Origin: Dictyostelium discoideum
Taxonomy: Eukaryota
DNA length: 64,000 nt
Reading direction: 5' to 3'
NCBI GenBank assembly: GCA_000004695.1
Contig: CM000153.2
Span: 3,232,001 to 3,296,000, forward strand
Shown here: one piece after another, positions 5,973 to 62,374 of the stretch
How the letters are laid out: each line of letters begins with the position of its first letter
How positions within the stretch are numbered: the first letter of the stretch is position 1
The notes under the pieces: model-generated
Seen by the model: the letters and a program-made list of their open reading frames with translations, nothing else
What the model was told of the DNA's origin: nothing
Database searches by the model: none
Made by a program: the position numbers and the translations under genes

Positions 5973-7086
5973 TTATCTTGAAGATGATAAAGCTCTTCTA
6001 TTACGAGTACCTAAAAGATTAAATGAATTATAACCATATAAAGATTTTTCATATTCCATTAATTGGAATTGAAAACCTGTATTAATATTTATACGTGGTG
6101 CAGAGTTTTTGACATATTCATAAGAATCCTTTAAAGATAATTTCAAAGCTTTCATTCCAAAAGCTACAGCCAATGTAGTTGATCTTGATCTACCTTCCTT
6201 ACAATGAATTAATATTGAAGATGATGGTGAATTTGTCAATGATTGTTGAATGAATTCAATTGCATCGTTAAAGTAACGATTAATTGGTTGATCGATTGAA
6301 TCTGAAACAGAGACACGAAAGAACTTTAAATGCTCCAATGATTTTGGTAAAGAGACTTCAATGGTTGCATTTAAGATTGAATTGATATTCTCCTTTTCCA
6401 ACCATTCCAAATTGTTTAAACAATTCTTACCACCTACAAATATATTGATATTTGGATCCAATTTTTCAAATACTTTAAATCCTTCATTTTTTGCGCTGTC
6501 AAAGTAATGTTGATGATTTCCAAAATCATCACTTTTAATACCAACAAGCGATCTAGTTCTATTTAAAATTCTTCCACCATTTTCATCATATTCCACTTCT
6601 TCCTCTTCTTTCTCTTCATTACTTTGTGTTGATGGCAATTCATCACCATTATTATCATCATTTTCTCCTTCCTCTTTAATGTTAAAGTTTAGTTTTGGTA
6701 ATTTCTCTTTTAATAATATAAATTCATATCTAATTTCTTTATCTTGTTTAGATGGTGATAAAACAAATGATACCTTAATTCGTTGATTATTGTCTGTGGT
6801 TGTTTCATTTGTTGATGTTGCTGCAGCAGTTGTTGTAGTAGTAGTAGTAGTAGTTGTTGTTGTTGTTGTTGGTGTTGGAATTGTAGATGATGATGAAGCT
6901 AATGGATTTTTAGCCGTTATTTTAGATGTTTTTTTCTTTTCAAACTTTCCACTAATATTTTTTTTAATTGTTTCAAATAATGATGGTTTCTTTTCATCTT
7001 TATTCTCTTTTTTAACCTTTATTTCTTTGGGTTTTATTTCTTTTATTGTTTCTTTTTTCTCCTTTTTAATTTCATTGTAATTATTA

Positions 7087-17270: not shown

Positions 17271-17957
17271 ATGAATAAATTTTTAATTGCATTATTGGTA
17301 TTAGCCACATTAGCAGTTTCATTTTCACAAGAAATTGGTGTTTCAATTTTAAAAACTGATACACCAAAAGGTGAATGTAAAGGTAAAACTGCCTCAATTG
17401 GTGATTATATCAGTTTAAAATATGTTGGTAAATTCGAAGACGGAACTGTCTTTGACTCCTCTGAGATTCACGGAGGTTTCAGCTTTAACTTCACCATTGG
17501 AGAACGTAAGTTAGTTGTACAAAAAAGTAAAATATAAAAAATAAAAAAAAAAAGATATTGACACCAAAAATAAATAAATGAATAAATAAAAATTATAAAA
17601 TATATAGGTAAAGTTATTCCAGGTTTAGAGATTGGTACAATTAATATTTGTGAAGGTGAAAAACGTTCAATCAAGATTCCATATCAATTAGCATACGGTG
17701 AAAATGGTATTGAAAATGCAATTCCACCACGTACAGATATTTATTTTGATTTGGAGGTTGTTTCAATCGAAGGAGCACCAGCTCAACCATTTTATTATCA
17801 ATTAATTCCATCAGTTGGTACCATCATTGCTTTTTCAATGTTAGCTGGTTTCATAGTTTTAGTTAAATTCATCATTAAACGTTATCCAGATGAATCAAAT
17901 TCTAAAAAACCAGCCCCAGGTAAACCAAAGAAAACAAAAGCAGCAAAACAAAACTAA
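17271..17957 (+). CDS. FKBP-type peptidyl-prolyl cis-trans isomerase with an N-terminal signal peptide and a C-terminal TM anchor. Exons 17271..17505 and 17608..17957.
   Basis: MNKFLIALLVLATLAVSFS is a signal peptide. The FKBP core runs GDYISLKYVGKFEDGTVFDSS...GERKVIPGLEIGTINICEGEKRSIKIPYQLAYGENGIENAIPPRTDIYFDLEVVSIE. It is followed by a TM helix (IIAFSMLAGFIVLVKFII) and a basic tail. The intron has a AAC|GTAAGT donor and a tatatag acceptor, with phase 1 consistent. Confidence 0.85.
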
Positions 17958-18349
17958 AATAAATAAATAAATAAATAAAAAATACAACTATCAAGATAAT
18001 AAAATCAAATAATTTTTTCATTAATTTATTTATGAATATTTTTAAAAAGTTTAATTCTATAAATTATTGATTAATAAATTCTTTGCATTAATGCATTGAT
18101 CCTAATCTATCTGAATTATTATTATTATTATTATTATTATTTCCTACTCTCAAAATAAAAAAATAATTAGAAAAAAGAATGATAAATAATTAAATTCTAA
18201 AGAAAAAAAAAAAAAATTATGATGAAGTAAGTTAAAAAAATAAAAATATAAAATAAAATATAATAAAAAATAATAATTAATTAAATTTAAAAATAGATTA
18301 ATCAATAAATAAATAAATAAATGAACAAATAAATGAAAAACTTTGTTTT

Positions 18350-18500
18350 TTACACTGCCAACGCGCAAAATGACAACGTAACCCCTGTAAGCGGCTAATA
18401 GCCCTGTAAGACGAACAGACGGATTTTTGGGATATTTTGGAACACTGTTGTAAGGTTTACAGGGGTTATGTAGTCATTTAAATTGATCCACTAAGTTGGT
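18350..18500. other. GC-rich island of about 150 bp with a 12-bp inverted repeat, TAACCCCTGTAA at 18379-90 and TTACAGGGGTTA at 18457-68. It is a candidate structured ncRNA or mobile-element remnant at the duplication junction.
   Basis: A sharp compositional break from the flanks: acgcgcaaaatgacaacgtaacccctgtaagcggctaatagccctgtaagacgaacagacggatttttgggat.... It holds direct repeats of CCCTGTAAG. On the minus strand there is a TCCCAAAA motif that resembles the Dictyostelium DUSE element upstream of ncRNA genes. No ORF. Confidence 0.3.
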
Positions 18501-18599
18501 GCAGTGAAATTAAATGATAAGTGAGGAAATCAATTAATTCTGTTTGATAATAATAATAATAAAAATAATAATAATGAGTAAATAAATAAATGAATAAAT

Positions 18600-18916
18600 A
18601 AATAAATAAAAATTATAAAATATATAGGTAAATTAGAAGATGTAATTATCTTTGATTCGTCAGATTTACATGGCGCGGCTTTAATTTCACACGTACAGAT
18701 ATTTACTTTGATTTGGAAGTTGTTTCAATCGAAGGAGCACCAGCTCAATCATTTTATTTTCAATTAATTCCATCAGTTGGTACCATCATTGCTTTTTCAA
18801 TGTTAGCTGGTTTCATAGTTTTAGTTAAATTCATCATTAAACGTTATCCAGATGAATCAAATTCTAAAAAACCAGCCCCAGGTAAACCAAAGAAAACAAA
18901 ACTAAAACTAAAATAA
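18600..18916 (+). pseudogene. Truncated FKBP copy. A degenerate exon-1 fragment is fused directly to the 3' end of exon 2, so the isomerase domain is deleted.
   Basis: ggtaaattagaagatgtaattatctttgattcgtcagatttacatggcgcggctttaatttcacacgtacagatatttac aligns, with many substitutions, to ggtaaattcgaagacggaactgtctttgactcctctgagattcacggaggtttcagc of exon 1. It then joins ..gatatttactttgatttggaagttgtttcaatcgaaggagcaccagctcaa.., which is the TM tail. The residual ORF 18713..18916 encodes only the TM tail. Confidence 0.6.
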
Positions 18917-19051
18917 AACTAAAATAAATAAATAAATAAAAACACAATTATCGAGATAATAAAATCAAGTAATAATTTTTTCATTTATTTATGAATATTT
19001 TTAAAAAAGGTTAATTCTATAAATTATTGGTTATTTAATAAATTCTTTACA

Positions 19052-20050
19052 TTAATCCATTGATTCTAATCTATCTGAATTATTATTATTATTATTATTA
19101 TTATTATTTCCCAAGATCGGCCTAAATAAATTATCATTTTCATTATCATTATTGCTAATATTTATTGATTCACTTAAGTCATCAATTGAATTACTATTTA
19201 CAATACTATTTCCTCCATCGCTACTATTTATACTATTATTTATATTATTTATATTATTATTATTATTATCAATACTAATATTATCAATTATATTATTATT
19301 TATATTTTTATTTATTGGACTATTATCATTTATTCCAATACTAGTTGAACCACTACTGCCACCACTACCACTACCACTTGCAATATTATTATTATTATTA
19401 TTATTATTATTGGTATTGTTATTATTATTATTACCACTTGATAAAATTTGATAAGAATTTGAATTTTGAAATAAATTATGAACTATTGGTAATAATCTTG
19501 TACCACTAATTGAAATTGATAATAGGGAGAAGAAAACAAAGATTATCCAAAATACGCTTAACCAATTTGGTAAATAACTTAGATGATGTAAATTTAAGAG
19601 GAATCCAACTGTTGATTTCTCCATACCAATTGCATTTCTACAGAATCTATAGATTCCACCTGTCAATGCCATGAACAATAATAAGAAGAAAATAACCGAT
19701 CCATAACGATGATGATATTCACGCATTGATTGTGGTATCCATCTACTACGACTTGTTAATTTACCAGTTCTACTACCAAATAGTGGATTGTAAATCATTG
19801 AATATCCAAATACAACCAATGCTACACATAGAATCATCAATAGAAATGTATATACAACTTCACTATTTTCAAATAACCATGACATTTGATGAATCTTCAT
19901 TAAAAATGATACCTTTTCTTTTGGAATTCCAAATCCATCTCTTAATATTTTATATAGTAATCCTGTTATCATTGTTGTCATCAATGGTAATATTATTGTA
20001 TACGCTATATACCTATGAAGTATCCTTTTATTCCAATACATTCTACCCAT
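19052..20050 (-). CDS. Multi-pass (about 4 TM) membrane protein with an Asn/Ser-rich C-terminal tail. Hypothetical.
   Basis: A single ORF from ATG 20050. It has four strongly hydrophobic segments (YTIILPLMTTMITGLLY, VVYTFLLMILCVALVVFGY, VIFFLLLFMALTGGIY, VFWIIFVFFSLLSISI), followed by a poly-N/S tail from (AAT)n. Its 3' end lies in duplication unit B. Confidence 0.55.
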   Translation of the reverse strand: MGRMYWNKRILHRYIAYTIILPLMTTMITGLLYKILRDGFGIPKEKVSFLMKIHQMSWLFENSEVVYTFLLMILCVALVVFGYSMIYNPLFGSRTGKLTSRSRWIPQSMREYHHRYGSVIFFLLLFMALTGGIYRFCRNAIGMEKSTVGFLLNLHHLSYLPNWLSVFWIIFVFFSLLSISISGTRLLPIVHNLFQNSNSYQILSSGNNNNNNTNNNNNNNNNIASGSGSGGSSGSTSIGINDNSPINKNINNNIIDNISIDNNNNNINNINNSINSSDGGNSIVNSNSIDDLSESINISNNDNENDNLFRPILGNNNNNNNNNNSDRLESMD

Positions 20051-43859: not shown

Positions 43860-44240
43860 CATGAAGCAAATGATTTGCGTACACCGTACAAGATGCAAAC
43901 AATATCAAAAAGTTGGAAATTAGTTTACCGCTACCACCACCAGAGAATTCAGAGTTTGAAACTTGTTAAGAAAGTGATAAAGATGGTGCTATGGTTTCCG
44001 TTGTCTCTCATAAAAATTTTGATGGTTGATGCACCTTCTCAAGCCCTACTGTTTCAATCAATCAAAAAAAGCAGGTATCTTTTAGATAATTAATTCAACA
44101 TTGAATATAAAAGAGATAAATTTAGCATATTGTTTTTTATTTTAAGGGGATAGGCCCCATTTTCAAAAAATGGCGGGGAACCTATGACCCTGTGTAAACC
44201 AAAGAATTCATTTAGTTTTTTGATTTAAAAATTAAAAAGA
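43860..44240. other. Moderately GC-rich island of about 380 bp with no convincing ORF. It contains GGGGATAGGCCCCATTTTCAAAAAATGGCGGGGAACCTATGACCCTGTGTAAACC. It may be a TE remnant or an ncRNA.
   Basis: Composition differs from the flanks. The 77-codon ORF 43875..44093 has no recognisable domain. The motif CCCTGT(G)TAA recurs in the 18350-18500 element. Confidence 0.25.
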
Positions 44241-52385: not shown

Positions 52386-52414
52386 GCACACACAAACACT
52401 CTCATAAATGGAGA

Positions 52415-53075
52415 ATGATTCAAAACGCATTTTTATATTTAAAGATAATCATTCTGATAGTAATAACAAATAATGTAAACTCACAATTAATTGATATTTA
52501 TTTCAGTAATAGTTATGATGATTTAAATGGTAATGGCACCATATCAAACCCATATCAAAATTTATGTTTACTTAATCAAATTTTAAATTCAAATAATAAT
52601 AATAATAATAATAACGATAATATAAATAGTTCAATAATAATAATAAATATTGATTATGGTGATTACAATTTAAATTGTTCATCATTTTTAATAATAAATA
52701 ACTTTAATAATATTTCATTCATACCTTATAAATCAAATAATAATAATAATAATAATGAAATTGTAAATTTAAATAATATAACCACATTAAAGATACTTAA
52801 TTCAAATTTAGGATTTGATGGGTTAATAACAATAATAACGAATCAAATAGAGATTTCATATAGTAGAATCATATTCAACAATGGATCAAAACTTTATTTC
52901 AACATAGAAAGATATGAACATTCAACACACTTTCAATGCTCAAATATTACATTTTCAAATTCAACATTTCTTTTAAAAAGAGATGAAAACTACCTTGTAT
53001 CAGAATCTAGTTCATTCGAATTTTTAGATTCATCTTTAGAAAATATATCTTTAATATTTAATAATAACCTATATT

Positions 53076-53153
<78 letters not shown>

Positions 53154-56100
53154 GTATTGGTAATAGTAGTAGAATTAGTAGTGGTAGTAGTAGTAGTAGT
53201 TATTTTTTATCAATGTTTAATTGTAATGCAACATTGATTTATTTCAGGATGAATGGATTTGGAAATGTTTTAATTAATAATTCATTATTAAATGATATAT
53301 CAATTAGAATAGAAGGTAGTTTTATAGTTAATATTAATAGTTCAGATATTTATGCAACTTCATTAGATCCACTTTTCATGGTGGCGAATATGGATATAGA
53401 AAGATCACTTTTAAATATAATAAATTCAAATATTTACTATTTAAATGATTCTGAGTATCCTTTAGCAATTATAGTTAAAAATAGTTTACTAAATATAAGT
53501 GGTTGTAATATAAATGGAAACTTTAAAAGAATTTATCCTCAAGCATTAATAAATGTTGCTGGTACTCCTTCATCATCATCATCAAATGATAGTAGTAGTG
53601 GTAGTAGTAGTAGTAGTAGTTGTATAGATAATGAAGCTTTATTAATTTTAGAGAATTCAAAGATTTCAAATTTTAATTCACCAAATAAATTTATTTTTTC
53701 AATTTGTTCAACTATTTTTATAAATAATATTACATTTTATTCAAATTCATACTCAACATTTTTATATATTAATAGTAGTAGTATTGTTAATTTAGATAAT
53801 ATTATAATGAAATGTGATGATATGAATAGATTTGAATATTTATTTTTAGCACTACCATCATCGTCATCATCATCATCATCAAATATAACAATTAATAATG
53901 TTTATATGAGTTGTGTTGGTATGTTTGAATTTGAAAATTGTAGAATTGAAATTTCAAATTTTAGTTTAGAATCATTTTCAAAACCTTCAACTATTAGGCT
54001 AAGTCATTCAAGTGAATTAATAATTAGGAATGGTGTTTTTATTTCAAGTATATTCAAAATTAAATCTTTTATGTTTTATTTAGAGCAGAATAGTAGGTTG
54101 GTCATTATAAATTGTCAATTTATAGATAGCACTACCAATATTATTTTCTCAAGAAATTCAGAAACAGTTTTACAATATTCAAATTTTTCAAATATAATAC
54201 CATATGGTGGTGGCAGTGGTGGTGATACATTTAATTCAAATTCAATTTTCTACTTTTCAAAAAGTTTATTACAAATTGAAAATTGTAATTTTAATCAAAC
54301 TCAAACTTTATCATCCCTATTTTATATGGAATTTTCAGAGAATGTAATTATAAAATCAACAAGATTTGAAAGAGTTGGTGATACTATTTTAAAAAGTTAC
54401 TTTTCAAACAACAATATTATCATTGATGATATTTATGTAGTGAATTGTAGTACTACACAGAGTGAGTTATTCTTTTTAACGTTTAATGAAAATGTTGTAA
54501 TTGGAAATTCAACTTTTAAAAATAATCATGGTATTGGTTATACTTTATTTACTATTAATGGTTGTTTACATTTTGAAATTAGTAAAACAATGATTTCAGA
54601 TAACTCTTTCTCATCAATTTTTAAAGAATCAAATTCAAATGCCATTCTACTAAATTCAATAATCTCAAATGGTAATACAGTTGATGATTTTTATAAATCT
54701 TCAAATTGTTCTTCCCTTTCAATTGATACTTTTAATTTTACAAATAATTATGTTAATTCAATATTCACAATAAATAAAATCACATCCAAAATTCAACTTT
54801 CAAATATTATAATTACAAATAATTATTTCACTAAAATAATTACAAAATTTAATCAATCTATAGTTGAAATTAATAATTTAACATTTATAGACAACATATT
54901 AATTGCACCTCAAAAATATGATTTGGATGGTGGTGGTGGTAGTAGTGGAGGTGGTGGTGGTGGTGGTGGATTATTCTTTGAAAATTGTCAAGTTATTTCT
55001 AAAGGTTTACAAATTTTAAATAATGAAATTTCAGTTAATTTAATTAATTTAAATGATTCTATATTATTAATTTCAGATGGTTTATTTGAAAATAATCAAA
55101 TTTCATCAAATTTTATTCATTCTGATTTTTCAACTGTTGCTTTATTTAATACAAAGGTATTGCATAATCAAGGTGGTGATGGTGGTGGTTCAACTTTATT
55201 TGTTATTCATAATTCAAATATTAATATAAGTGATTGTGAATTCTCTTTTAATAATCTTTATAAAAATGGTATGGGTTCAATTATTAATTTTGATAAATAT
55301 TTAAATAAATTTACTTATTTTCAAATTGAAAATACTTTATTTTCTTTCAATATTGCTAAATTTGGTCAATTATACTTTTCAGGTTATCCAAATGATCAAG
55401 ATGCATTTACAAATAGTAAAAATACATTTTCAAATAATACATTAATTTCAAATCATGCATCTTCACAAGGTGGTGCTATCTTTACAGAAAATTTCATTTT
55501 CTCTTTAAATATTTCAAATATTTTAAATTCAAATCATTTCGATAATAATACTTCATTATGTGGTGATAATTTCTCTTCAAGTATGTATTATTGTTTTTAT
55601 TTTTATTTTTATTTTTATTTTTAATAATTCTAATTTTTTTTTATTTTTTTTTATTAGGTTTAAAAGAAATTATTTTCATAGAAACTAATGGTACATTTTT
55701 AGTAAATGGAGTTGGAACTATTATCAATTATAATGCAGTGGATTTTTATAATAATGTATTCACCACATTATCTTCACCAATTCAAATTAGTATTACAAGT
55801 TTATCAAATAATGAAACACTGGTATTCACTGAAATGATTATTGGTGGTAAAGGAAGTTTTTTACATACTTTTATAGGACCACTTTATGAAAGATTTAAAA
55901 TTGAATTAAATTCCATACCATACTATTCAAATGTTTATTTAACACTTGGTGGATGTTTACCATTTCAATATATGAATAATTTAACATGTGAATATTGTCC
56001 AATAGGTTCATCATATAGTAATTCAATAGGTCAATGTTTTAAATGTAATCCTAATGCAGTGACATGTGTTGGTTCATTTGTAAATGTAAATACTGGATAT

Positions 56101-57240
56101 TATATGATCGATAATGAAATCTCAATGGTTGAACGATGTGCAAACGATATGTGTCTCTCAAATAATCAATGTCAATTTAAATATAGTTCAGGAGATTTAT
56201 GTTTCAGTTGTTTAGATCCAGACTCATCAACACCAACATTCATAGCAGCTAAACATGGAATTAATTGTTGTTCCCAATTTAAAGTATGGTTAATTGTACC
56301 ATTATTATTATTATATTTAGTTTCAGCATTAGTTCTCTCAATAATCAAATTAAATTTATTCACAACAATAATTGGACCAATAATAGTATTCCTTCAAATT
56401 AATTCAGTAGTTTTCTTTTCTTATAATGGTATTTACATTTTAGCATTCTTTAGAGTATCATTAGATATTTTAGATGGAATTTGTATTTTCAAAGGATTAA
56501 ATCATGGAGATAAAACATTAATTATATTATTAATTATAATAATAATGTTTTTAATTTCTTCAAGTGATTGGCTTCCTTTATGGTTATTTAGAAAATTAAA
56601 TTCAAATTTTAAATTATACAATTATTTAAAAAGAAATTTAAAAAAGAATAGAAATTTAAAGAAATCATCATCAACAACTCAACTTAATTATTTTATTAGA
56701 TCAAGATGGCAATTATTTCAAATCTTTATTATTCCATTAATATTCAATTCATTTACATTGATAATACCAAAGAAAATTAAAGATCAAACATTATTATTAG
56801 TAGATTTTTCAATTTTATTTGGATCATGGCAGAGTATAATTCAAATTTTCATTTCAGTTTTAGTAATAATATCAGCAATGGTATTTTTAATATTAAAATA
56901 TCAATTTTACAGCAAGGGTAAACTAAAGTTGTGGAGTTTCATTATAATTTTAAGATCAGTTTTATTTTCAATTCTATCAATTACATCAATTTTTAGCGAT
57001 AATGAATTTTATATGCCATCGATTATTCTAATTCAAATAGTCTATTCAAGTATTTACTTGTATTTGAAACCTTTAAAAGAAAAAATTGATAATAGTAATT
57101 TTATAAATTTAATTCAAATAATTATCTTTCTTTTCGCAGATTCAAGATTATTCCAACCAATTTCTCCCCATTATCTTGGCTTAATTTTAACTATTTTAAT
57201 TATTATTTTAAATTTATTTATAATAATAAAAACCTTTTAA
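52415..57240 (+). CDS. Giant membrane protein, copy 1, about 1580 aa. It has a signal peptide, about 900 aa of parallel beta-helix (PbH1 / chlamydial Pmp-like) repeats, a Gly-rich hinge, a Cys-rich module and about 10 TM helices. Exons 52415..55580 and 55658..57240.
   Basis: MIQNAFLYLKIIILIVITNNVNSQ is a signal peptide. The body has repeated N-x-x-x-x-x-S/N-x-I-x-F beta-helix rungs (..NVYMSCVGMFEFENCRIEISNFSLES.., ..VIINCQFIDSTTNIIFSRNSETVLQYSNFSNI..). The hinge is GGGGSSGGGGGGGG. The Cys-rich module is CEYCPIGSSYSNSIGQCFKCNPNAVTCVGS..CANDMCLSNNQCQFKYSSGDLCFSCLDPDSS..INCC. A multi-TM block follows (WLIVPLLLLYLVSALVLSII.. and more). The intron at 55581..55657 has a TCAA|GTATGT donor and a ttattag acceptor, with phase 1 consistent. 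Confidence 0.8.
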
Positions 57241-57413: not shown

Positions 57414-57562
57414 TACGTGATCGCTGATTGGCTGGGCAAAAAATTAAAAAAAATCAAAATAAAAATGAAAATAAAAATGAAAATTCTCAAAAAAAAAAAA
57501 AAAAAAAATTGAAAACATAAACATTTTTATTCAAACCAAATTATTAGTTACATAAATGGAGA

Positions 57563-58256
57563 ATGATACATAATTTATATTTAAAGATAATCATTCTTTT
57601 ATTAATAATAAATAATAATGTAAACTCACAAATAATTGATATTTATTTCAGTAATAGTTATGGTGATTTAAATGGTAATGGCACCATATCAAACCCATAT
57701 CAAAATTTATGTTTACTTAATCAAATTTTAAATTCAAATAATAATAATAATAACGATAATAACGATAATAAAAATAATTCAATAATAATAATAAATATTG
57801 ATTATGGTGATTACAATTTAAATTGTTCATCATTTTTAATAATAAATAACTTTAATAATATTTCATTCATACCTTATAATTCAAATAATAATAATAATAA
57901 TAATAATGGAATTGTAAATTTAAATAATTTAACCACATTAAAGATACTTAATTCAAATGTTAAATTCGATGGGTTAATTAAAATCACAATAACAATTATA
58001 GAAAATGAAACGGAAATTATAAATAGTGATATATTATTGAATAATGGGGTAACTCTTTATTTTATCAAAAATTACCAACTAACCAACAGTGAATTTCAAT
58101 GTTCAAGTATTAAATTTTCAAATTCAAAATTTATTTCAAATTGGTCACAAAATGATGTATCTATTTATTTTAATTCAGATTCCAGCTTATTTGAATTTCA
58201 AAATTCTTTAGTAGAAAATGTATTTTTAAAATTTAATAATATAAAAAATTGTAGTA

Positions 58257-58287
<31 letters not shown>

Positions 58288-61200
58288 GAATGAAATTAAT
58301 TTTTTAACATTTAATAATAGTAATATCAAAGATTGTTATTTTGCAACTAGTGGTTTAAATTCAATTTTTAATAATTCTTTATTAGATGGTTTAAAAATGA
58401 ATATTGGAGCAAGTAGTATAGTAACAATTCTCAACTCTAAATTATATGCAAAACCAGATTCTATTTTAGGAACTTTTCTAATTACCAATGTTGATCAAAG
58501 TACAAAACCATCAGTTTTAAATATAGTTAATTCAAATATTTACCATTTACAAGATTCTCGTTATTCATTAATTATGCTATTTATAAATTCATTTGTAAAT
58601 ATTAGTGGTTGTACAATTGAAGGTAGGGAAACAATAGTTCAAACACCAATTGTATTAATTGGAATACCAAATAGTAGTGGTGGTGGTGGTAATAATAATA
58701 ATCAAGTGATACTAGTTTTAGAGAATTCAAAGATTTCAAATTTAATTTCACCAAAAGATTTTATCAATTCATTTAGTTCTACCGTTATTATAAATAATGT
58801 TCAATTTTATTCAAATTCATTTTCAACAATTATTTCATCAAGAGGGTCAACTTCTTTTAATCTTTATAATATCATTATTACATGTGATCAAAGGAATATA
58901 TTTACATCAATTATTAAAATGCCATCATCGGAAAATGATTTATATTCAAATTTGACATCTTTTATAGATTTTAATAATGTTTATATGGGTTGTGTTGGTG
59001 GATTTGAATTTCAAAATTCAAAAATCCAAATTTCAAATTTTAGATTAGAATCATCTTCAAAACCTTCAATATTTAGTTTAATTTTAAATAGTGAATTAAC
59101 AATTATTAATGCCACTTTTATTTCAAGTATATTTGATCAATCTCCTTCAATTTTTTATATTAATTCAAGTAAATTAACAGTTTTACAAAGTGAATTCAAA
59201 GATAGTACCAACTCTATTCTATCTTTATATGGTGGTTCAACAGCAACCTTTCAATCAACCAATTTTTCAAGTATAATAACCTATGAAAGAGTTCCAATTT
59301 TTAATAGTAGTTCAAGTTCATTATTTATTGAAAATTGTAGTTTTTTTGAAATTCAAACTTCAGTTTCATCATTATTCAATTGTTTTGATTGTGATAATTT
59401 AACTATAAAGAATTCAATATTTGAAAGAGTTGGTGATATCATTTTAGATTGTTTCAATACAAAACTAATAATTATTGATTCTATAAATGTTTCAAATTGT
59501 AGTTCACAAACAGGTTTATTCTATTTTTCAAATAATAGAAATGGTAGTAGTATTATCACAAATTCTTCATTTATAAATAATCATGGTATCGGTGTTACAC
59601 TATTTAATATATTTGAATCAAATTTTGAAATTAGTTCAACAGATTTAATAGATAACACATTTTTATCAATATTTGATGAATCATTTTCAAATGTAACAAT
59701 TGAACGCATTTACGTTACAGGTACAACTGGAATTTTTTATTCTGCTTTAAATTCAATATCGATTTTAGTTGATGGTTTAGATTTTAAAGATAATTATGTC
59801 ACCTCTGTATTTACTATTAATCAAGCTAATAAAATTGAATTTTCAAATATAGCAATTTATAAAAACTATTTCATAGATGGTGTAAATGTTATGATGATTA
59901 GTCTTTGTACATTGGAAATCAATAATTTTAATTTTATGGAAAATGTTTTAATTGCACCACCTAAATCAGAACAAACTAGTGGTGGCGGTAGTGGTGGTAG
60001 TGGTAGTGTTGGTGGAGGATTAATTTTTCAAAATTCTAATGTCATTTTCAATGATTTACAAATTTTAAAAAATGAAATTTCAGTTAATTTATTTAATTGT
60101 ATTAACAATACATTATTATCAATTACAGGTGGTTTATTTCAAAATAATAAAGTTTCATCAAGTTTTATTTTTTCTGAAATTTCAGTAATCAATTTAATTA
60201 GAACACATCTATTGCATAATCAAGGTGATAGTTCAACTTTATTAATGTTGTATGCTTCAAACATCAATGTGAATTATTGTGAATTCTCTTTTAATAATAT
60301 TTATCAAAATGGTAGTGGCTCAATATTAAATTTTAAAAGAAACTTGGAAACACACGAGTATTTAGGAAACTTTCAAATTGAAAATACTTTATTCTCTTTA
60401 AATATTGCTAAATTTGGTCAATTATACTTTTCAGGTTATCCAAATGATCAAGATGCATTTACAAATAGCAAAAATACATTTTCAAATAATACACTAATTT
60501 CAAATCATGCATCTTCACAAGGTGGTGCTATCTTTACAGAAAATTTCATTTTCTCTTTAAATATTTCAAATATTTTAAATTCAAATCATTTCGATAATAA
60601 TACTTCATTATGTGGTGATAATTTCTCTTCAAGTATGTATTATTATTATTTTATTTTTGTTCATTTTTTGGCCAATCTAACTTTTTTTTTATTTTTTTTA
60701 TTAGGTTTAAAAGAAATTATTTTCATAGAAACTAATGATACATTTTTAGTAAATGGAGTTGGAACTATTATCAATTATAACGCAGTGGATTTTTATAATA
60801 ATACATTAACAACATTATCTTCACCAATTCAAATTAGTATTACACGTTTATCAAATAATGAAATTCAAACTTATTCAGAAGCAATTTTAAGTGGTAAAGG
60901 AAGTTTTTTACATACTTTTATAGGACCACTTTATGAAAGATTTAAAATTGAATTGTATCTCAAACCATATTATTCAAATGTTTATTTAACACTTGGTAAA
61001 TGTTTACCATTTCAATATATGAATAATTTAACATGTGAATATTGTCCAATAGGTTCATCATATAGTAATTCAATAGGTCAATGTTTAAAATGTAATCCTA
61101 ATGCAGTGACATGTGTTGGTTCATTTGTAAATGTAAATACTGGATATTATATGATCGATAATGAAATTTCAATGGTTGAACGATGTGCAAACGATATGTG

Positions 61201-62374
61201 TCTTTCAAATAATCAATGTCAATTTAAATATAGTTCAGGAGATTTATGTTTCAGTTGTTTAGATCCAGACTCATCAACACCAACATTCATAGCAGCTAAA
61301 CATGGAATTAATTGCTGTTCCCAATTTAAAGAATGGTTAATTGTACCATTATTATTATTATATTTAGTTTCAGCATTAGTTCTCTCAATAATTAAATTAA
61401 ATTTATTCACAGAAACAACAATAATTGGACCAATAATAGTATTCCTTCAAATTAATTCAGTAGTTTTCTTTTCTTATAATGGTATTTACATTTTATCATT
61501 CTTTAGAGTATCATTAGATATTTTAGATGGAATTTGTATTTTCAAAGGATTAAATCATGGAAATAAAACATTAATTACACTATCAATAATAATAATAATG
61601 TTTTTAATTTCTTCAAGTGATTGGCTCCCTTTATGGTTATTTAGAAAATTAAATTCAAATTTTAAGTTATACAATTATTTAAAAAGAAATTTAAAAAAGT
61701 ATAGAAATTTAAAGAAATCATCAACAACTCAGTTTAATTACTTTATTAGATCAAGATGGCAATTATTTCAAATCTTTATTATACCATTAATATTCAATTC
61801 ATTTACATTGATAATACCAAAGAAAATTAAAGATCAAACATTATTATTAGTAGATTTTTCAATTTTATTTGGATCATGGCAGAGTATAATTCAAATTTTC
61901 ATTTCAGTTTTAATATTATCATTGGTAGTTTTAGTTATAATAATAAAACATTTCTATTACAGCAACAAAAAAAATCAATGGAATATTAATCTTAAGCAAA
62001 ATGGAAAGACATTATCTTTTAAAAGAATTTTATTAGTAGTTAAAACAATTTGTTTCATCTTTCTTTTAGGTTCATGGGATTTTATTATTATAAGATCATT
62101 TTTATTTTCAATTTTATCAATAGCTTTGATATTTAGCGATGGTAATTTATTTTTACCATCAATTATTTTAATACAAATCATTTATTCAATTATTCAATTT
62201 TTGTTGAATCCTTTCAAAAAAAAGGTTCATAATCTTATTAATTTAATCCAACTTATAATCTTTTTTTTTGCAGACTCAAGTTTATTCCACCCAATTACTC
62301 CTTTCGCTTTGGGATTAATGCTAACTATTTTAATTATTATTTCCCCTTTTTTTATAGCAATTGGAAATAAATAA
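57563..62374 (+). CDS. Giant beta-helix / multi-TM membrane protein, copy 2. It is a tandem paralogue of 52415..57240. Exons 57563..60632 and 60705..62374.
   Basis: It has the same architecture and a near-identical N-terminus (MIHNLYLKIIILLLIINNNVNSQIIDIYFSNSYGDLNGNGTISNPYQNLCLLNQILNSNNNNN). The equivalent intron is TCAA|GTATGT ... ttattag. In the ORF track it stays open because it lacks a stop, but the same donor and acceptor are conserved. The C-terminal TM block is about 98% identical to copy 1 at the nucleotide level over about 1.5 kb, while the central beta-helix region is diverged. Confidence 0.8.

What the first reader, a model, noticed from the sequence alone, without database searches (positions are those of the whole stretch)
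18350..18500. GC-rich inverted-repeat element at the duplication junction, a candidate ncRNA or TE footprint
A 150-bp island of normal GC content in an 85% AT context. Its arms are TAACCCCTGTAA / TTACAGGGGTTA (12 bp) around a 66-nt spacer with internal CCCTGTAAG direct repeats. The minus strand carries TCCCAAAA, which resembles the DUSE promoter element of Dictyostelium small ncRNA genes. A related CCCTGT(G)TAA motif recurs in the 43860-44240 GC island. The element has no counterpart in duplicate unit B. It could be a small RNA gene. It could also be the footprint of the element that mediated the duplication.
Basis: partly seen in the sequence, partly recalled or inferred. Interest (0 to 1): 0.6.

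Follow-up and report, generated by a model that had tools for sequence, protein, structure and literature searches.

The report
Orphan GC-rich palindrome in duplication spacer
A real 160-base GC-rich hairpin-forming island sits between two copies of a duplicated FKBP3 gene fragment in the Dictyostelium discoideum AX4 lineage. It matches no known RNA family and is missing from every related strain and species examined, so it is most likely leftover DNA from a messy rearrangement rather than a small-RNA gene.

Summary
Positions 18350-18510 are 41.6% GC against about 10% GC on both sides. The 12-bp arms and 66-nt spacer are exact, and the inverted repeat extends to 23 bp with 2 mismatches (18368-18390 / 18457-18479).

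- Rfam gives nothing.
- A Class I covariance model built from 26 curated D. discoideum genes gives no hit.
- TCCCAAAA does not match the DUSE consensus and is a chance-level octamer.
- C and D boxes are absent.
- The arm motif is absent from published miRNA, snoRNA and Class I supplements.
- Six-frame peptides hit no protein.
- The "related" island near 44 kb is not related.

The window is D. discoideum AX4 (fkbp3 locus). The island lies in a 541-bp spacer between 422-bp direct repeats, inside the predicted 437-nt intron of the FKBP3-derived model DDB_G0285457. Seven other assemblies lack the island, from D. purpureum to two other D. discoideum assemblies that share the duplication.

Best reading (0.45): junction filler or inverted-duplication by-product of a complex, repeatedly remodelled tandem duplication. 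A foldback transposon fragment or a very young hairpin RNA remains possible. Whole-genome copy number and RNA-seq could not be checked.

The parts
18350..18510 (.). GC-rich island, an imperfect palindrome. It is 41.6% GC within about 10% GC flanks.
   Evidence: Composition. Palindrome alignment of the left half against the reverse complement of the right half spans 18340-18407 / 18442-18522.
18368..18390 (+). Left arm of the core inverted repeat: AAATGACAACGTAACCCCTGTAA.
   Evidence: It pairs with the right arm at 21 of 23 positions. On the + strand RNA one mismatch is A-A and the other is a G-U wobble.
18457..18479 (+). Right arm of the core inverted repeat: TTACAGGGGTTATGTAGTCATTT.
18391..18456 (+). 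66-nt spacer between the 12-bp perfect arms. It folds into small sub-hairpins on the + strand.
   Evidence: + strand 18360-18490 folds at -44.5 kcal/mol, z = -5.3; minus strand folds at -33.9 kcal/mol, z = -2.9.
18353..18362 (+). Outer left inverted-repeat module CACTGCCAAC. It pairs with 18495-18506, with indels between the modules.
   Evidence: The extended fold of 18340-18525 gives -55.2 kcal/mol, z = -3.75.
18495..18506 (+). Outer right inverted-repeat module GTTGGTGCAGTG.
18383..18391 (+). Direct repeat copy 1 of CCCTGTAAG, overlapping the left arm. On the minus strand it reads CTTACAGGG.
18402..18410 (+). Direct repeat copy 2 of CCCTGTAAG.
18445..18455 (-). CCTTACAACAG, a 9/11 match to the Class I 11-nt motif CCTTACAGCAA. 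It lies next to the stem. It is the third minus-strand CTTACAR motif within 70 nt.
   Evidence: The motif is taken from the curated Class I sequences. The covariance model does not score the region.
18425..18432 (-). TCCCAAAA, the DUSE-like octamer. It is not a consensus DUSE.
17720..18141 (+). Direct repeat A: the 3' half of fkbp3 exon 2, the 3' UTR, and a copy of the 3' end of the convergent neighbour gene.
   Evidence: 92.3% over 429 columns; FKBP3 identity.
18683..19105 (+). Direct repeat B, the FKBP3-derived part of DDB_G0285457. It runs on into the intact neighbour gene at 19052-20050 (minus strand).
18142..18682 (+). Unique spacer between the repeats. Part-by-part composition:
- an AT-rich stretch;
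- the GC island;
- a piece resembling the 3' end of the FKBP3 intron (18547-18632);
- a piece resembling FKBP3 exon 1 (18626-18690).
   Evidence: It is absent from all outgroup loci.
18227..18663 (+). Predicted 437-nt intron of the AX4 gene model DDB_G0285457. The intron contains the island.
   Evidence: exon 1 (18219-18226) plus exon 2 (18664-18916) translate exactly to P0030, the protein of DDB_G0285457.

Best explanation
The island is non-functional junction DNA. It is filler or template-switch sequence that was partly copied in inverted orientation while the junction of an old tandem duplication at the fkbp3 locus was formed or later remodelled, on the lineage leading to D. discoideum AX4.

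**Shown.**
- The ancestral arrangement is fkbp3 followed by a convergent neighbour gene, 140-340 bp apart.
- A segment covering the 3' part of fkbp3, its 3' UTR and the 3' end of the neighbour gene was duplicated in tandem before AX4 split from two other D. discoideum assemblies.
- The junction region then evolved differently in each lineage.
- Copy B in AX4 is itself a patchwork joined at short shared sequences: FKBP3 intron 3' end, then an exon-1 piece, then the exon-2 end.

**Inferred.**
- The GC-rich 160 bp came from elsewhere in the genome. The donor is not identified. It is non-coding, because no reading frame hits any protein.
- The palindrome arose by fold-back or inverted template switching during break repair or replication restart.
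- Today the island does nothing autonomous. It sits in the predicted 437-nt intron of the FKBP3-derived model DDB_G0285457. If that region is transcribed, it would simply form a 23-bp stem hairpin that is removed with the intron.
For: **Lineage-specific presence.**
- The island and spacer occur only in the window and in a second, identical D. discoideum assembly, GCA_054883475.1.
- A single-copy fkbp3 with neither duplication nor island is found in D. citrinum, two D. cf. discoideum assemblies, D. firmibasis, D. dimigraforme and D. purpureum.

**A shared duplication with a differently remodelled junction.**
- Two other D. discoideum assemblies (L019, L020) share the 3' UTR duplication.
- In the 3' UTR, orthologous copies are 98.1% and 97.8% identical with 2-3 gap columns. 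Paralogous copies are 92-96% identical with 13-16 gap columns.
- Those assemblies have only a 223-bp spacer, with no island and no FKBP-coding part of copy B.

**Copy B is scrambled.**
- 18547-18632 matches the FKBP3 intron 3' end.
- It is fused at a shared AAATAT..GGTAAA sequence to an exon-1 piece that carries a 4-nt deletion.
- That piece is fused at TTCAC to the end of exon 2.
- This fits a complex, multi-junction rearrangement.

**Negative results for every functional class that could be tested.**
- Rfam.
- Class I covariance model.
- DUSE.
- tRNA.
- Published small-RNA catalogues.
- Protein similarity in six frames.

**Age.** The divergence between the core arms (2 of 23 positions) is about the same as the divergence between repeats A and B. 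This is compatible with a similar age.
Against: - No donor sequence was found. The island matches nothing in the 64-kb window, in 127 kb of related loci, in metagenome or viral scans for the two 11-nt arm cores, in a bacterial-genome scan for a 22-nt stretch spanning the two direct repeats, or in E. coli genomes and plasmids. The D. discoideum genome itself could not be searched.
- The junctions flanking the island are in 90% AT sequence. Microhomology there cannot be told from chance; the AT-rich spacer resembles the FKBP3 intron no more than random AT-rich segments do.
- A GC content of 42% and a cluster of four TTACA(G/A) motifs are features one would also expect of a functional RNA or a protein-binding element.
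- Whether L019/L020 lost the island or AX4 gained it is unresolved.
Confidence: 0.45

Rival explanations
1. The island is a non-autonomous foldback or MITE-like DNA element, or a non-coding fragment of a larger transposon, that inserted into the spacer. The terminal inverted repeats and the repeated subterminal TTACAGGG motifs would be transposase-binding sites.
For: - A 23-bp terminal-type inverted repeat plus an outer inverted-repeat module.
- Three same-strand copies and one inverted copy of TTACA(G/A) within 90 nt.
- Presence/absence polymorphism between D. discoideum assemblies.
- No coding capacity.
Against: - No target-site duplication at any of the three possible inverted-repeat boundaries (read from the sequence).
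- Single copy in the 64-kb window and in 127 kb of related loci.
- The 9-mers CCCCTGTAA and TTACAGGGG are absent from the 400 kb of D. discoideum chromosome sequence and the 400 kb of D. firmibasis sequence held as a paper supplement. This is a weak test, because line breaks can split matches.
- From my own knowledge, not tested: 42% GC is atypical for dictyostelid repeats, and no such element is in the described repeat families.
- thug-S, the hairpin-bearing DNA transposon, has an intron and is a larger element.
Confidence: 0.2
2. The island is a very young, lineage-specific hairpin RNA. The 23-bp stem would be processed by the Dicer-like protein DrnB from the intron of DDB_G0285457 or from an independent transcript, as a miRNA-like or hairpin-RNA precursor.
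For: - The + strand folds at -44.5 kcal/mol over 131 nt (-0.34 kcal/mol/nt, z = -5.3). This passes the < -0.2 kcal/mol/nt criterion used for D. discoideum miRNAs (PMC6161686).
- The arm length matches a 21-23-nt duplex.
- Nearly all D. discoideum miRNAs are species-specific. Some sit in intergenic "modules" that are wholly absent from D. firmibasis, and two are intronic (PMC11014262; PMC6161686).
Against: - The arm motif is absent from the hairpin and candidate lists in the supplements of the two main surveys.
- The stem encloses a 66-nt branched loop rather than a continuous hairpin.
- Any DNA palindrome gives a strong z-score, so the fold alone carries no information.
- No homologues exist, so covariation cannot be tested.
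- The island is absent from other D. discoideum assemblies.
Confidence: 0.13
3. The island is a DUSE-driven small ncRNA gene of the Class I or snRNA type on the minus strand.
For: - The minus strand carries CCTTACAACAG, a 9/11 match to the Class I motif, directly next to the 5' half of a stem. It also carries two more CTTACAGGG copies.
- A TTTT run follows the 3' half of the stem.
- The island has the GC content typical of dictyostelid ncRNAs.
Against: - A Class I covariance model run with filters off gives no hit with E <= 10 at the island. The weakest listed hit elsewhere scores 7.4 bits, and the authors require at least 15 bits plus a DUSE.
- There is no G/AAG start and no CUG(U) end in register with the stem.
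- The stem-enclosed unit is 90-112 nt, against the usual 42-65 nt.
- There is no consensus DUSE within 150 nt upstream on either strand. TCCCAAAA is a mismatch, is chance-level, and sits inside the loop.
- No Rfam hit.
- The island is absent from all relatives.
Confidence: 0.03
4. The island is a cis-regulatory DNA element: a cluster of TTACAGGG-type protein-binding sites acting on fkbp3, DDB_G0285457 or the convergent neighbour gene.
For: Four TTACA(G/A) motifs in both orientations lie within 90 bp, in an otherwise 90% AT region.
Against: - No known dictyostelid factor is linked to this motif (my own knowledge, not tested).
- The island is absent from the orthologous intergenic region in all relatives, although the flanking genes are conserved.
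- The motif copies are explained by the internal direct and inverted duplications.
Confidence: 0.05

Closest known systems
Complex tandem duplication with inserted or inverted junction sequence, the kind attributed to microhomology-mediated template switching or end-joining with filler DNA
   Same: - Direct repeats of about 420 bp flank a unique spacer.
- The structure is absent from outgroups.
- Copy B is a patchwork joined at short shared sequences.
- The spacer contains an inverted duplication.
- The junction was remodelled differently in sister lineages.
   Different: - No donor locus for the inserted GC-rich sequence was identified.
- The breakpoints next to the island lie in AT-rich low-complexity DNA, where microhomology cannot be scored.
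Dictyostelid Class I RNAs (Kjellin et al. 2021, PMC7919456)
   Same: - A terminal stem with a CCUUACA-type motif next to its 5' half (9/11 match on the minus strand).
- GC content about 40%.
- A T-run follows the 3' half of the stem.
   Different: - The stem is 12-23 bp rather than 6 bp.
- The unit is 90-112 nt rather than about 60 nt.
- There is no G/AAG start and no CUG(U) end.
- There is no DUSE or TGTG box.
- There is no covariance-model score.
- It is single-copy and not conserved.
D. discoideum miRNA precursors (ddi-mir genes; PMC6161686, PMC11014262)
   Same: - A lineage-specific hairpin in an intergenic or intronic AT-rich context.
- The stem is long enough for a 21-nt duplex.
- The folding energy per nucleotide is within the accepted range.
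   Different: - It has a large branched 66-nt loop.
- It is not in any published list.
- Expression is unknown.
Foldback or MITE-type DNA transposons
   Same: - A short non-coding unit made almost entirely of inverted repeats, with repeated subterminal motifs.
- Presence/absence polymorphism.
   Different: - No target-site duplication.
- No other copy seen.
- It is GC-rich where the host genome and its known repeats are AT-rich.

Membership tests
Class I RNA (Dictyostelia) | Covariance-model score: the authors use >= 25 bits, or >= 15 bits together with a DUSE. | tested here: not met
   Model R1 was built from 26 curated D. discoideum Class I sequences with the 6-bp stem. With filters off it lists no hit with E <= 10 in 18340-18520. 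The weakest listed hit elsewhere in the window scores 7.4 bits.
Class I RNA (Dictyostelia) | The 11-nt motif CCUUACAGCAA next to the 5' half of the terminal stem. | tested here: inconclusive
   The minus strand carries CCTTACAACAG at 18445-18455, a 9/11 match, one base after the stem. CTTACAR occurs at the chance rate across the window as a whole (14 seen, 14.5 expected).
Class I RNA (Dictyostelia) | A 6-bp stem joining a 5' G/AAG start to a 3' CUG(U) end, with a length of 42-65 nt. | tested here: not met
   The stem is 12-23 bp and the enclosed unit is 90-112 nt. The sequence after the 3' arm is ACGTTGTC, not CTG(T).
DUSE-dependent ncRNA genes of Dictyostelium | [A/T]CCCA[C/T]AA about 60 nt upstream of the RNA start or of a TGTG box. 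| tested here: not met
   The window has six consensus sites and none lies within 3 kb of the island. TCCCAAAA at 18425-18432 mismatches position 6 and is expected 7.4 times per window. It lies in the hairpin loop, and only AT-rich sequence follows 60 nt downstream.
Any Rfam 15 family (snRNA, snoRNA, SRP, RNase P/MRP, miRNA and others) | Score at or above the family's gathering threshold. | tested here: not met
   The window has no matches at gathering thresholds. The best sub-threshold matches are TtnuCD15 at 18.7 bits (threshold 75), rli51 at 16.1 (48), MIR9486 at 13.9 (100) and GlsR6 at 13.5 (75), with E-values of 0.5-3.
Box C/D snoRNA | A C box (RUGAUGA) near the 5' end and a D box (CUGA) near the 3' end, with a short terminal stem. 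| tested here: not met
   There is no CTGA and no TGATGA on either strand of 18340-18525 (read). In the weak TtnuCD15 alignment both boxes are mismatched, UUAUCA and CUUA.
DrnB-dependent miRNA of D. discoideum | A hairpin with folding energy below -0.2 kcal/mol/nt and at least 60% pairing of the duplex. | tested here: met
   The fold is -44.5 kcal/mol over 131 nt, or -0.34 kcal/mol/nt, with 21 of 23 positions paired. Criteria are from PMC6161686. Any palindrome meets this.
DrnB-dependent miRNA of D. discoideum | At least 10 reads on each arm with a 2-nt 3' overhang and precise 5' ends, lost in the drnB knockout. | not testable with these tools
   No read data are available. As indirect evidence, the arm motif is absent from the supplements of PMC6161686 and PMC11014262.
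MITE or foldback DNA transposon | Terminal inverted repeats. | tested here: met
   The 23-bp inverted repeat pairs at 21 of 23 positions, and there are outer modules.
MITE or foldback DNA transposon | A target-site duplication flanking the inverted repeats. | tested here: not met
   The flanks at each possible boundary differ: ACGCGCA|...|AAATTGA for 18368/18479, GTTTTTTA|...|AAATTAAA for 18353/18507, and GAAAA|...|GAGGAAA for 18340/18522.
MITE or foldback DNA transposon | Multiple dispersed copies in the genome. | tested here: inconclusive
   There are none in the 64-kb window and none in 127 kb of related loci. The arm 9-mers are absent from the roughly 0.8 Mb of D. discoideum and D. firmibasis sequence held as a supplement. 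The full genome could not be searched.
Tandem duplication with junction insertion | Direct repeats flanking a unique spacer, with a single copy and no spacer in outgroups. | tested here: met
Tandem duplication with junction insertion | An identifiable donor for the inserted sequence, and microhomology at the junctions. | tested here: inconclusive
   The internal junctions of copy B show shared short sequences. No donor for the island was found. The AT-rich flanks are uninformative.

The most novel reading that the evidence does not exclude
The island is a newborn structured RNA caught at birth. An AX4-lineage-specific hairpin, created by an inverted duplication inside the intron of a decaying fkbp3 duplicate (DDB_G0285457), would already be processed into small RNAs. 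Alternatively, through its three CUUACA(G/A) motifs, it would bind the Class I RNA-binding protein. Either way it would give a dated example of how dictyostelid miRNA or ncRNA "modules" arise from rearrangement junk.
Probability: 0.1. Interest if true: 0.55.

Novelty: new member of a known kind. Interest (0 to 1): 0.2.

Why it matters
As it stands the finding is mostly housekeeping. It explains an odd GC island and shows that the AX4 gene model DDB_G0285457 is a scrambled fkbp3 duplicate whose long "intron" holds rearrangement debris.

Its modest wider value is as a well-dated natural example. Outgroups lack the structure, and sister D. discoideum assemblies share the duplication but carry a differently remodelled junction. 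This illustrates how tandem duplication junctions in an extremely AT-rich genome pick up foreign GC-rich, hairpin-forming DNA.

Published comparisons report that dictyostelid miRNA loci appear as lineage-specific "modules" (PMC11014262). Such palindromes are plausible raw material for new hairpin RNAs, but expression from this one has not been shown.

Tried and rejected
- **Rfam.** I scanned the whole window at gathering thresholds and two sub-regions at E <= 10. Only noise-level matches appeared.
- **tRNA.** ARAGORN found none in the window, so a tRNA-targeted retroelement context is unlikely.
- **Class I.** A covariance model from 26 curated sequences gave no hit at the island.
- **DUSE.** Neither the consensus nor the variant supports a promoter.
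- **The 43.9-kb island.** It shows no similarity and has no Rfam hit of its own.
- **Origin from FKBP3 sequence.**
  - I tested whether the island is a diverged or inverted piece of fkbp3, against AX4 and seven orthologues on both strands.
  - The best score of 29 lies within the shuffle distribution (mean 24.1, maximum 33).
  - A 14-nt match to the reverse complement of exon 1 is therefore not significant.
- **A third decayed FKBP3 copy.** I tested whether the AT-rich part of the spacer is another FKBP3 intron copy. It is not distinguishable from random AT-rich segments: 33% of them score as high.
- **Coding potential.** Concatenated six-frame peptides searched against 5.8 billion proteins gave no hit at E <= 10.
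- **Foreign origin.** There is no match in E. coli genomes or plasmids. A 22-mer has no match in 185,579 prokaryotic genomes.
- **Arm-pattern scans.** The 12 metagenome hits and 1 viral hit are all unrelated hairpins with different spacers.
- **Literature.**
  - Full-text searches for sub-sequences of the island returned nothing relevant; the TTACAGGGGTT hits are fission-yeast telomere oligonucleotides.
  - A full-text search for DDB_G0285455 and DDB_G0285457 found no papers.
  - The Glöckner 2001 paper on Dictyostelium repeats is not held.
- **thug-S.** I rejected it as a match because it is a larger, intron-containing DNA transposon.
- **Telomerase-RNA template.** GUAACCCCUGUAA looks like 1.5 repeats of TTACAGGGG. 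I rejected this reading because the island is missing from all sister taxa.
- **Other isolates.** I tried to fetch more D. discoideum isolates through copy B's open reading frame and through P0030. Neither is on record.
Full report
**What is there**

The region 18350-18510 is 41.6% GC. Its flanks are 9.5% and 10.4% GC.

The inverted repeat is larger than reported. It is 23 bp with two mismatches, at 18368-18390 / 18457-18479, with BLAST E = 0.002 against the whole window. A looser outer pair of modules follows, CACTGCCAAC and GTTGGTGCAGTG. Together they make the whole island an imperfect palindrome spanning about 18340-18522, with several indels in the outer part.

A perfect 12-nt inverted repeat appears in only 3 of 1000 dinucleotide shuffles of the island. 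CCCTGTAAG occurs twice in direct orientation.

As RNA, the + strand of 18360-18490 folds at -44.5 kcal/mol (z = -5.3) and the minus strand at -33.9 kcal/mol (z = -2.9). Any DNA palindrome behaves this way, so the fold does not by itself indicate an RNA gene.

**Where it is**

The spliced gene at 17272-17960 is 100% identical to FK506-binding protein 3 of Dictyostelium discoideum AX4.

Positions 17720-18141 and 18683-19105 are direct repeats, 92% identical with gaps counted and 96-98% identical at aligned bases. Each repeat covers the end of fkbp3 exon 2, its 3' UTR and the last few codons of the convergent neighbour gene. The island lies in the 541-bp unique spacer between them.

The second repeat is annotated in AX4 as the hypothetical protein DDB_G0285457. 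Exon 1 (18219-18226) plus exon 2 (18664-18916) translate exactly to that 86-residue protein. The island therefore sits inside its predicted 437-nt intron.

Copy B is scrambled:
- 18547-18632 matches the 3' end of the fkbp3 intron.
- That piece is joined at a shared AAATAT..GGTAAA sequence to a fragment of exon 1.
- The exon-1 fragment carries a 4-nt frameshifting deletion and keeps ancestral-looking bases. It is 87% identical to D. firmibasis exon 1 and about 75% identical to AX4 exon 1.
- It is joined in turn at TTCAC to the end of exon 2.

**Comparative evidence**

I fetched the orthologous locus from nine other assemblies.

| Assembly | Duplication | Island | Gap from fkbp3 to neighbour gene |
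|---|---|---|---|
| Second D. discoideum assembly (GCA_054883475.1) | yes | yes; identical to the window over 2.9 kb | 1095 bp |
| D. citrinum | no | no | 140-340 bp |
| Two D. cf. discoideum assemblies | no | no | 140-340 bp |
| D. firmibasis | no | no | 140-340 bp |
| D. dimigraforme | no | no | 140-340 bp |
| D. purpureum | no | no | 140-340 bp |
| Two further "D. discoideum" assemblies (GCA_054859355.1, GCA_054859385.1; loci L019 and L020) | yes, 3' UTR only | no | about 530-540 bp (223-bp spacer) |

L019 and L020 do carry a duplicated 3' UTR. In the 3' UTR, orthologous copies are closer (98.1% and 97.8% identity, 2-3 gap columns) than paralogous copies (92-96% identity, 13-16 gap columns). 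The duplication therefore predates the split of these lineages from AX4. Their spacer is only 223 bp. It contains neither the island nor the FKBP-coding part of copy B.

The junction has thus been remodelled independently in the two lineages. The island is dispensable within the species, or at most the species complex.

**Tests of the small-RNA reading**

- Rfam 15 has no family at threshold in the window. With relaxed thresholds on 196 nt, only noise-level matches appear: 13-19 bits at E of 0.5-3, against gathering scores of 48-100.
- ARAGORN finds no tRNA in the window.
- I built a Class I covariance model from 26 curated D. discoideum sequences taken from the supplement of Kjellin et al. 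2021, using the 6-bp terminal stem. I ran it over the window with filters off. No hit with E <= 10 falls on the island.
- One resemblance is worth recording. The minus strand carries CCTTACAACAG, a 9/11 match to the Class I motif CCTTACAGCAA, right next to the stem. Two more CTTACAGGG copies follow.
- The other defining Class I features are absent: the 6-bp stem, the G/AAG start, the CUG(U) end, a length of about 60 nt, and an upstream DUSE.
- TCCCAAAA does not fit [A/T]CCCA[C/T]AA. The octamer is expected about 7 times per window by chance. It sits in the hairpin loop, with only AT-rich DNA 60 nt downstream.
- Neither strand has a C box or a D box.
- The arm motif is absent from the supplements of the two main D. 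discoideum miRNA surveys, the box C/D snoRNA survey and the Class I paper.

**Tests of the transposon and foreign-DNA readings**

- No target-site duplication flanks any of the three possible inverted-repeat boundaries.
- There is no second copy in the window or in 127 kb of related loci.
- Concatenated six-frame peptides hit no protein among 5.8 billion. The island is therefore not a fragment of a coding gene or of a transposon reading frame.
- Nothing matches in E. coli genomes, plasmids or prokaryotic genomes.
- Scans of metagenome and viral collections for the arm pair return only unrelated hairpins.
- The island is not recognisably derived from fkbp3 itself.
- The AT-rich part of the spacer is not demonstrably a third fkbp3 copy.
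- The claimed relationship to the 43.86-44.24 kb island is not supported.

**Interpretation**

The best-supported account has three steps:
1. An old tandem duplication arose at the fkbp3 locus on the D. discoideum stem.
2. Its junction was repeatedly remodelled.
3. In the AX4 lineage the junction carries about 160 bp of GC-rich non-coding DNA of unidentified origin, partly duplicated in inverted orientation.

The multi-junction, microhomology-type structure of copy B makes a template-switch or end-joining origin plausible. The insertion step itself is inferred, not shown, because no donor was found and the D. discoideum genome could not be searched.

I put this reading at 0.45. The rivals are:
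- a foldback or MITE-like element, or a transposon fragment: 0.2;
- a very young hairpin RNA: 0.13;
- a protein-binding DNA element: 0.05;
- a DUSE-driven Class I or snRNA-type gene: 0.03;
- something else: the remainder.

Absence from relatives does not by itself exclude a miRNA-type locus. Nearly all D. discoideum miRNAs are species-specific, and some sit in lineage-specific intergenic modules (PMC11014262).

**Verdict**

The feature is real and correctly described, but it is probably ordinary rearrangement debris.
- Interest: 0.2.
- Novelty: a new member of a known kind (junction insertion or palindrome at a tandem duplication).
- Most novel reading not excluded: a newborn hairpin or ncRNA inside the intron of a decaying gene duplicate, at probability about 0.1.

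Noticed in passing
window 18219-18916: The AX4 gene model DDB_G0285457 (86 aa, MMK|FTWRGFNFT...) is a scrambled partial duplicate of fkbp3. It consists of the intron 3' end, an exon-1 fragment with a 4-nt deletion, and the exon-2 end. It needs a 437-nt intron to make an open reading frame, and no gene is called at this position in the annotation of the second D. discoideum assembly. The last 67 codons are almost identical to fkbp3 (5 substitutions in about 220 nt), which suggests constraint or gene conversion.
   Followed up: partly
L019 4707-5291 and L020 4705-5303: Two other assemblies labelled D. discoideum share the 3' UTR duplication. Their spacer is 223 bp, and copy A extends further into the neighbour gene with an internal deletion. 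The junction has therefore evolved independently in sister lineages.
   Followed up: partly
window 18626-18690: The exon-1-like fragment in copy B keeps bases shared with D. firmibasis and D. citrinum (GATTCATCAGATTTACA type). The functional fkbp3 of the D. discoideum assemblies has a cluster of derived changes there (GA(C/T)TCCTCTGAGATTCAC). The pseudogene preserves the older state.
   Followed up: partly
window 43860-44240: A second GC-richer island in an AT-rich intergenic region. It has no Rfam match at E <= 1, only short reading frames, and no similarity to the 18.4-kb island. Its nature was not determined.
   Followed up: partly
window 52403-57208 and 57551-62342: A tandem duplication of a large gene region with a period of about 5.05 kb. 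Identity between the copies ranges from 75% to 90% depending on the segment.
   Followed up: no
L002 about 6705-6890 (D. citrinum): The D. citrinum fkbp3 3' UTR carries an extra AT-rich insertion of about 185 bp that is absent from the D. discoideum and D. cf. discoideum sequences in the same alignment.
   Followed up: no
window 18379-18391 (+) and 18383-18468: GUAACCCCUGUAA and TTACAGGGGTTAC read like fission-yeast-type telomere repeat or template sequence, which explains the literature hits to S. pombe telomere papers. I judged this coincidental, because the island is absent from all sister taxa.
   Followed up: partly
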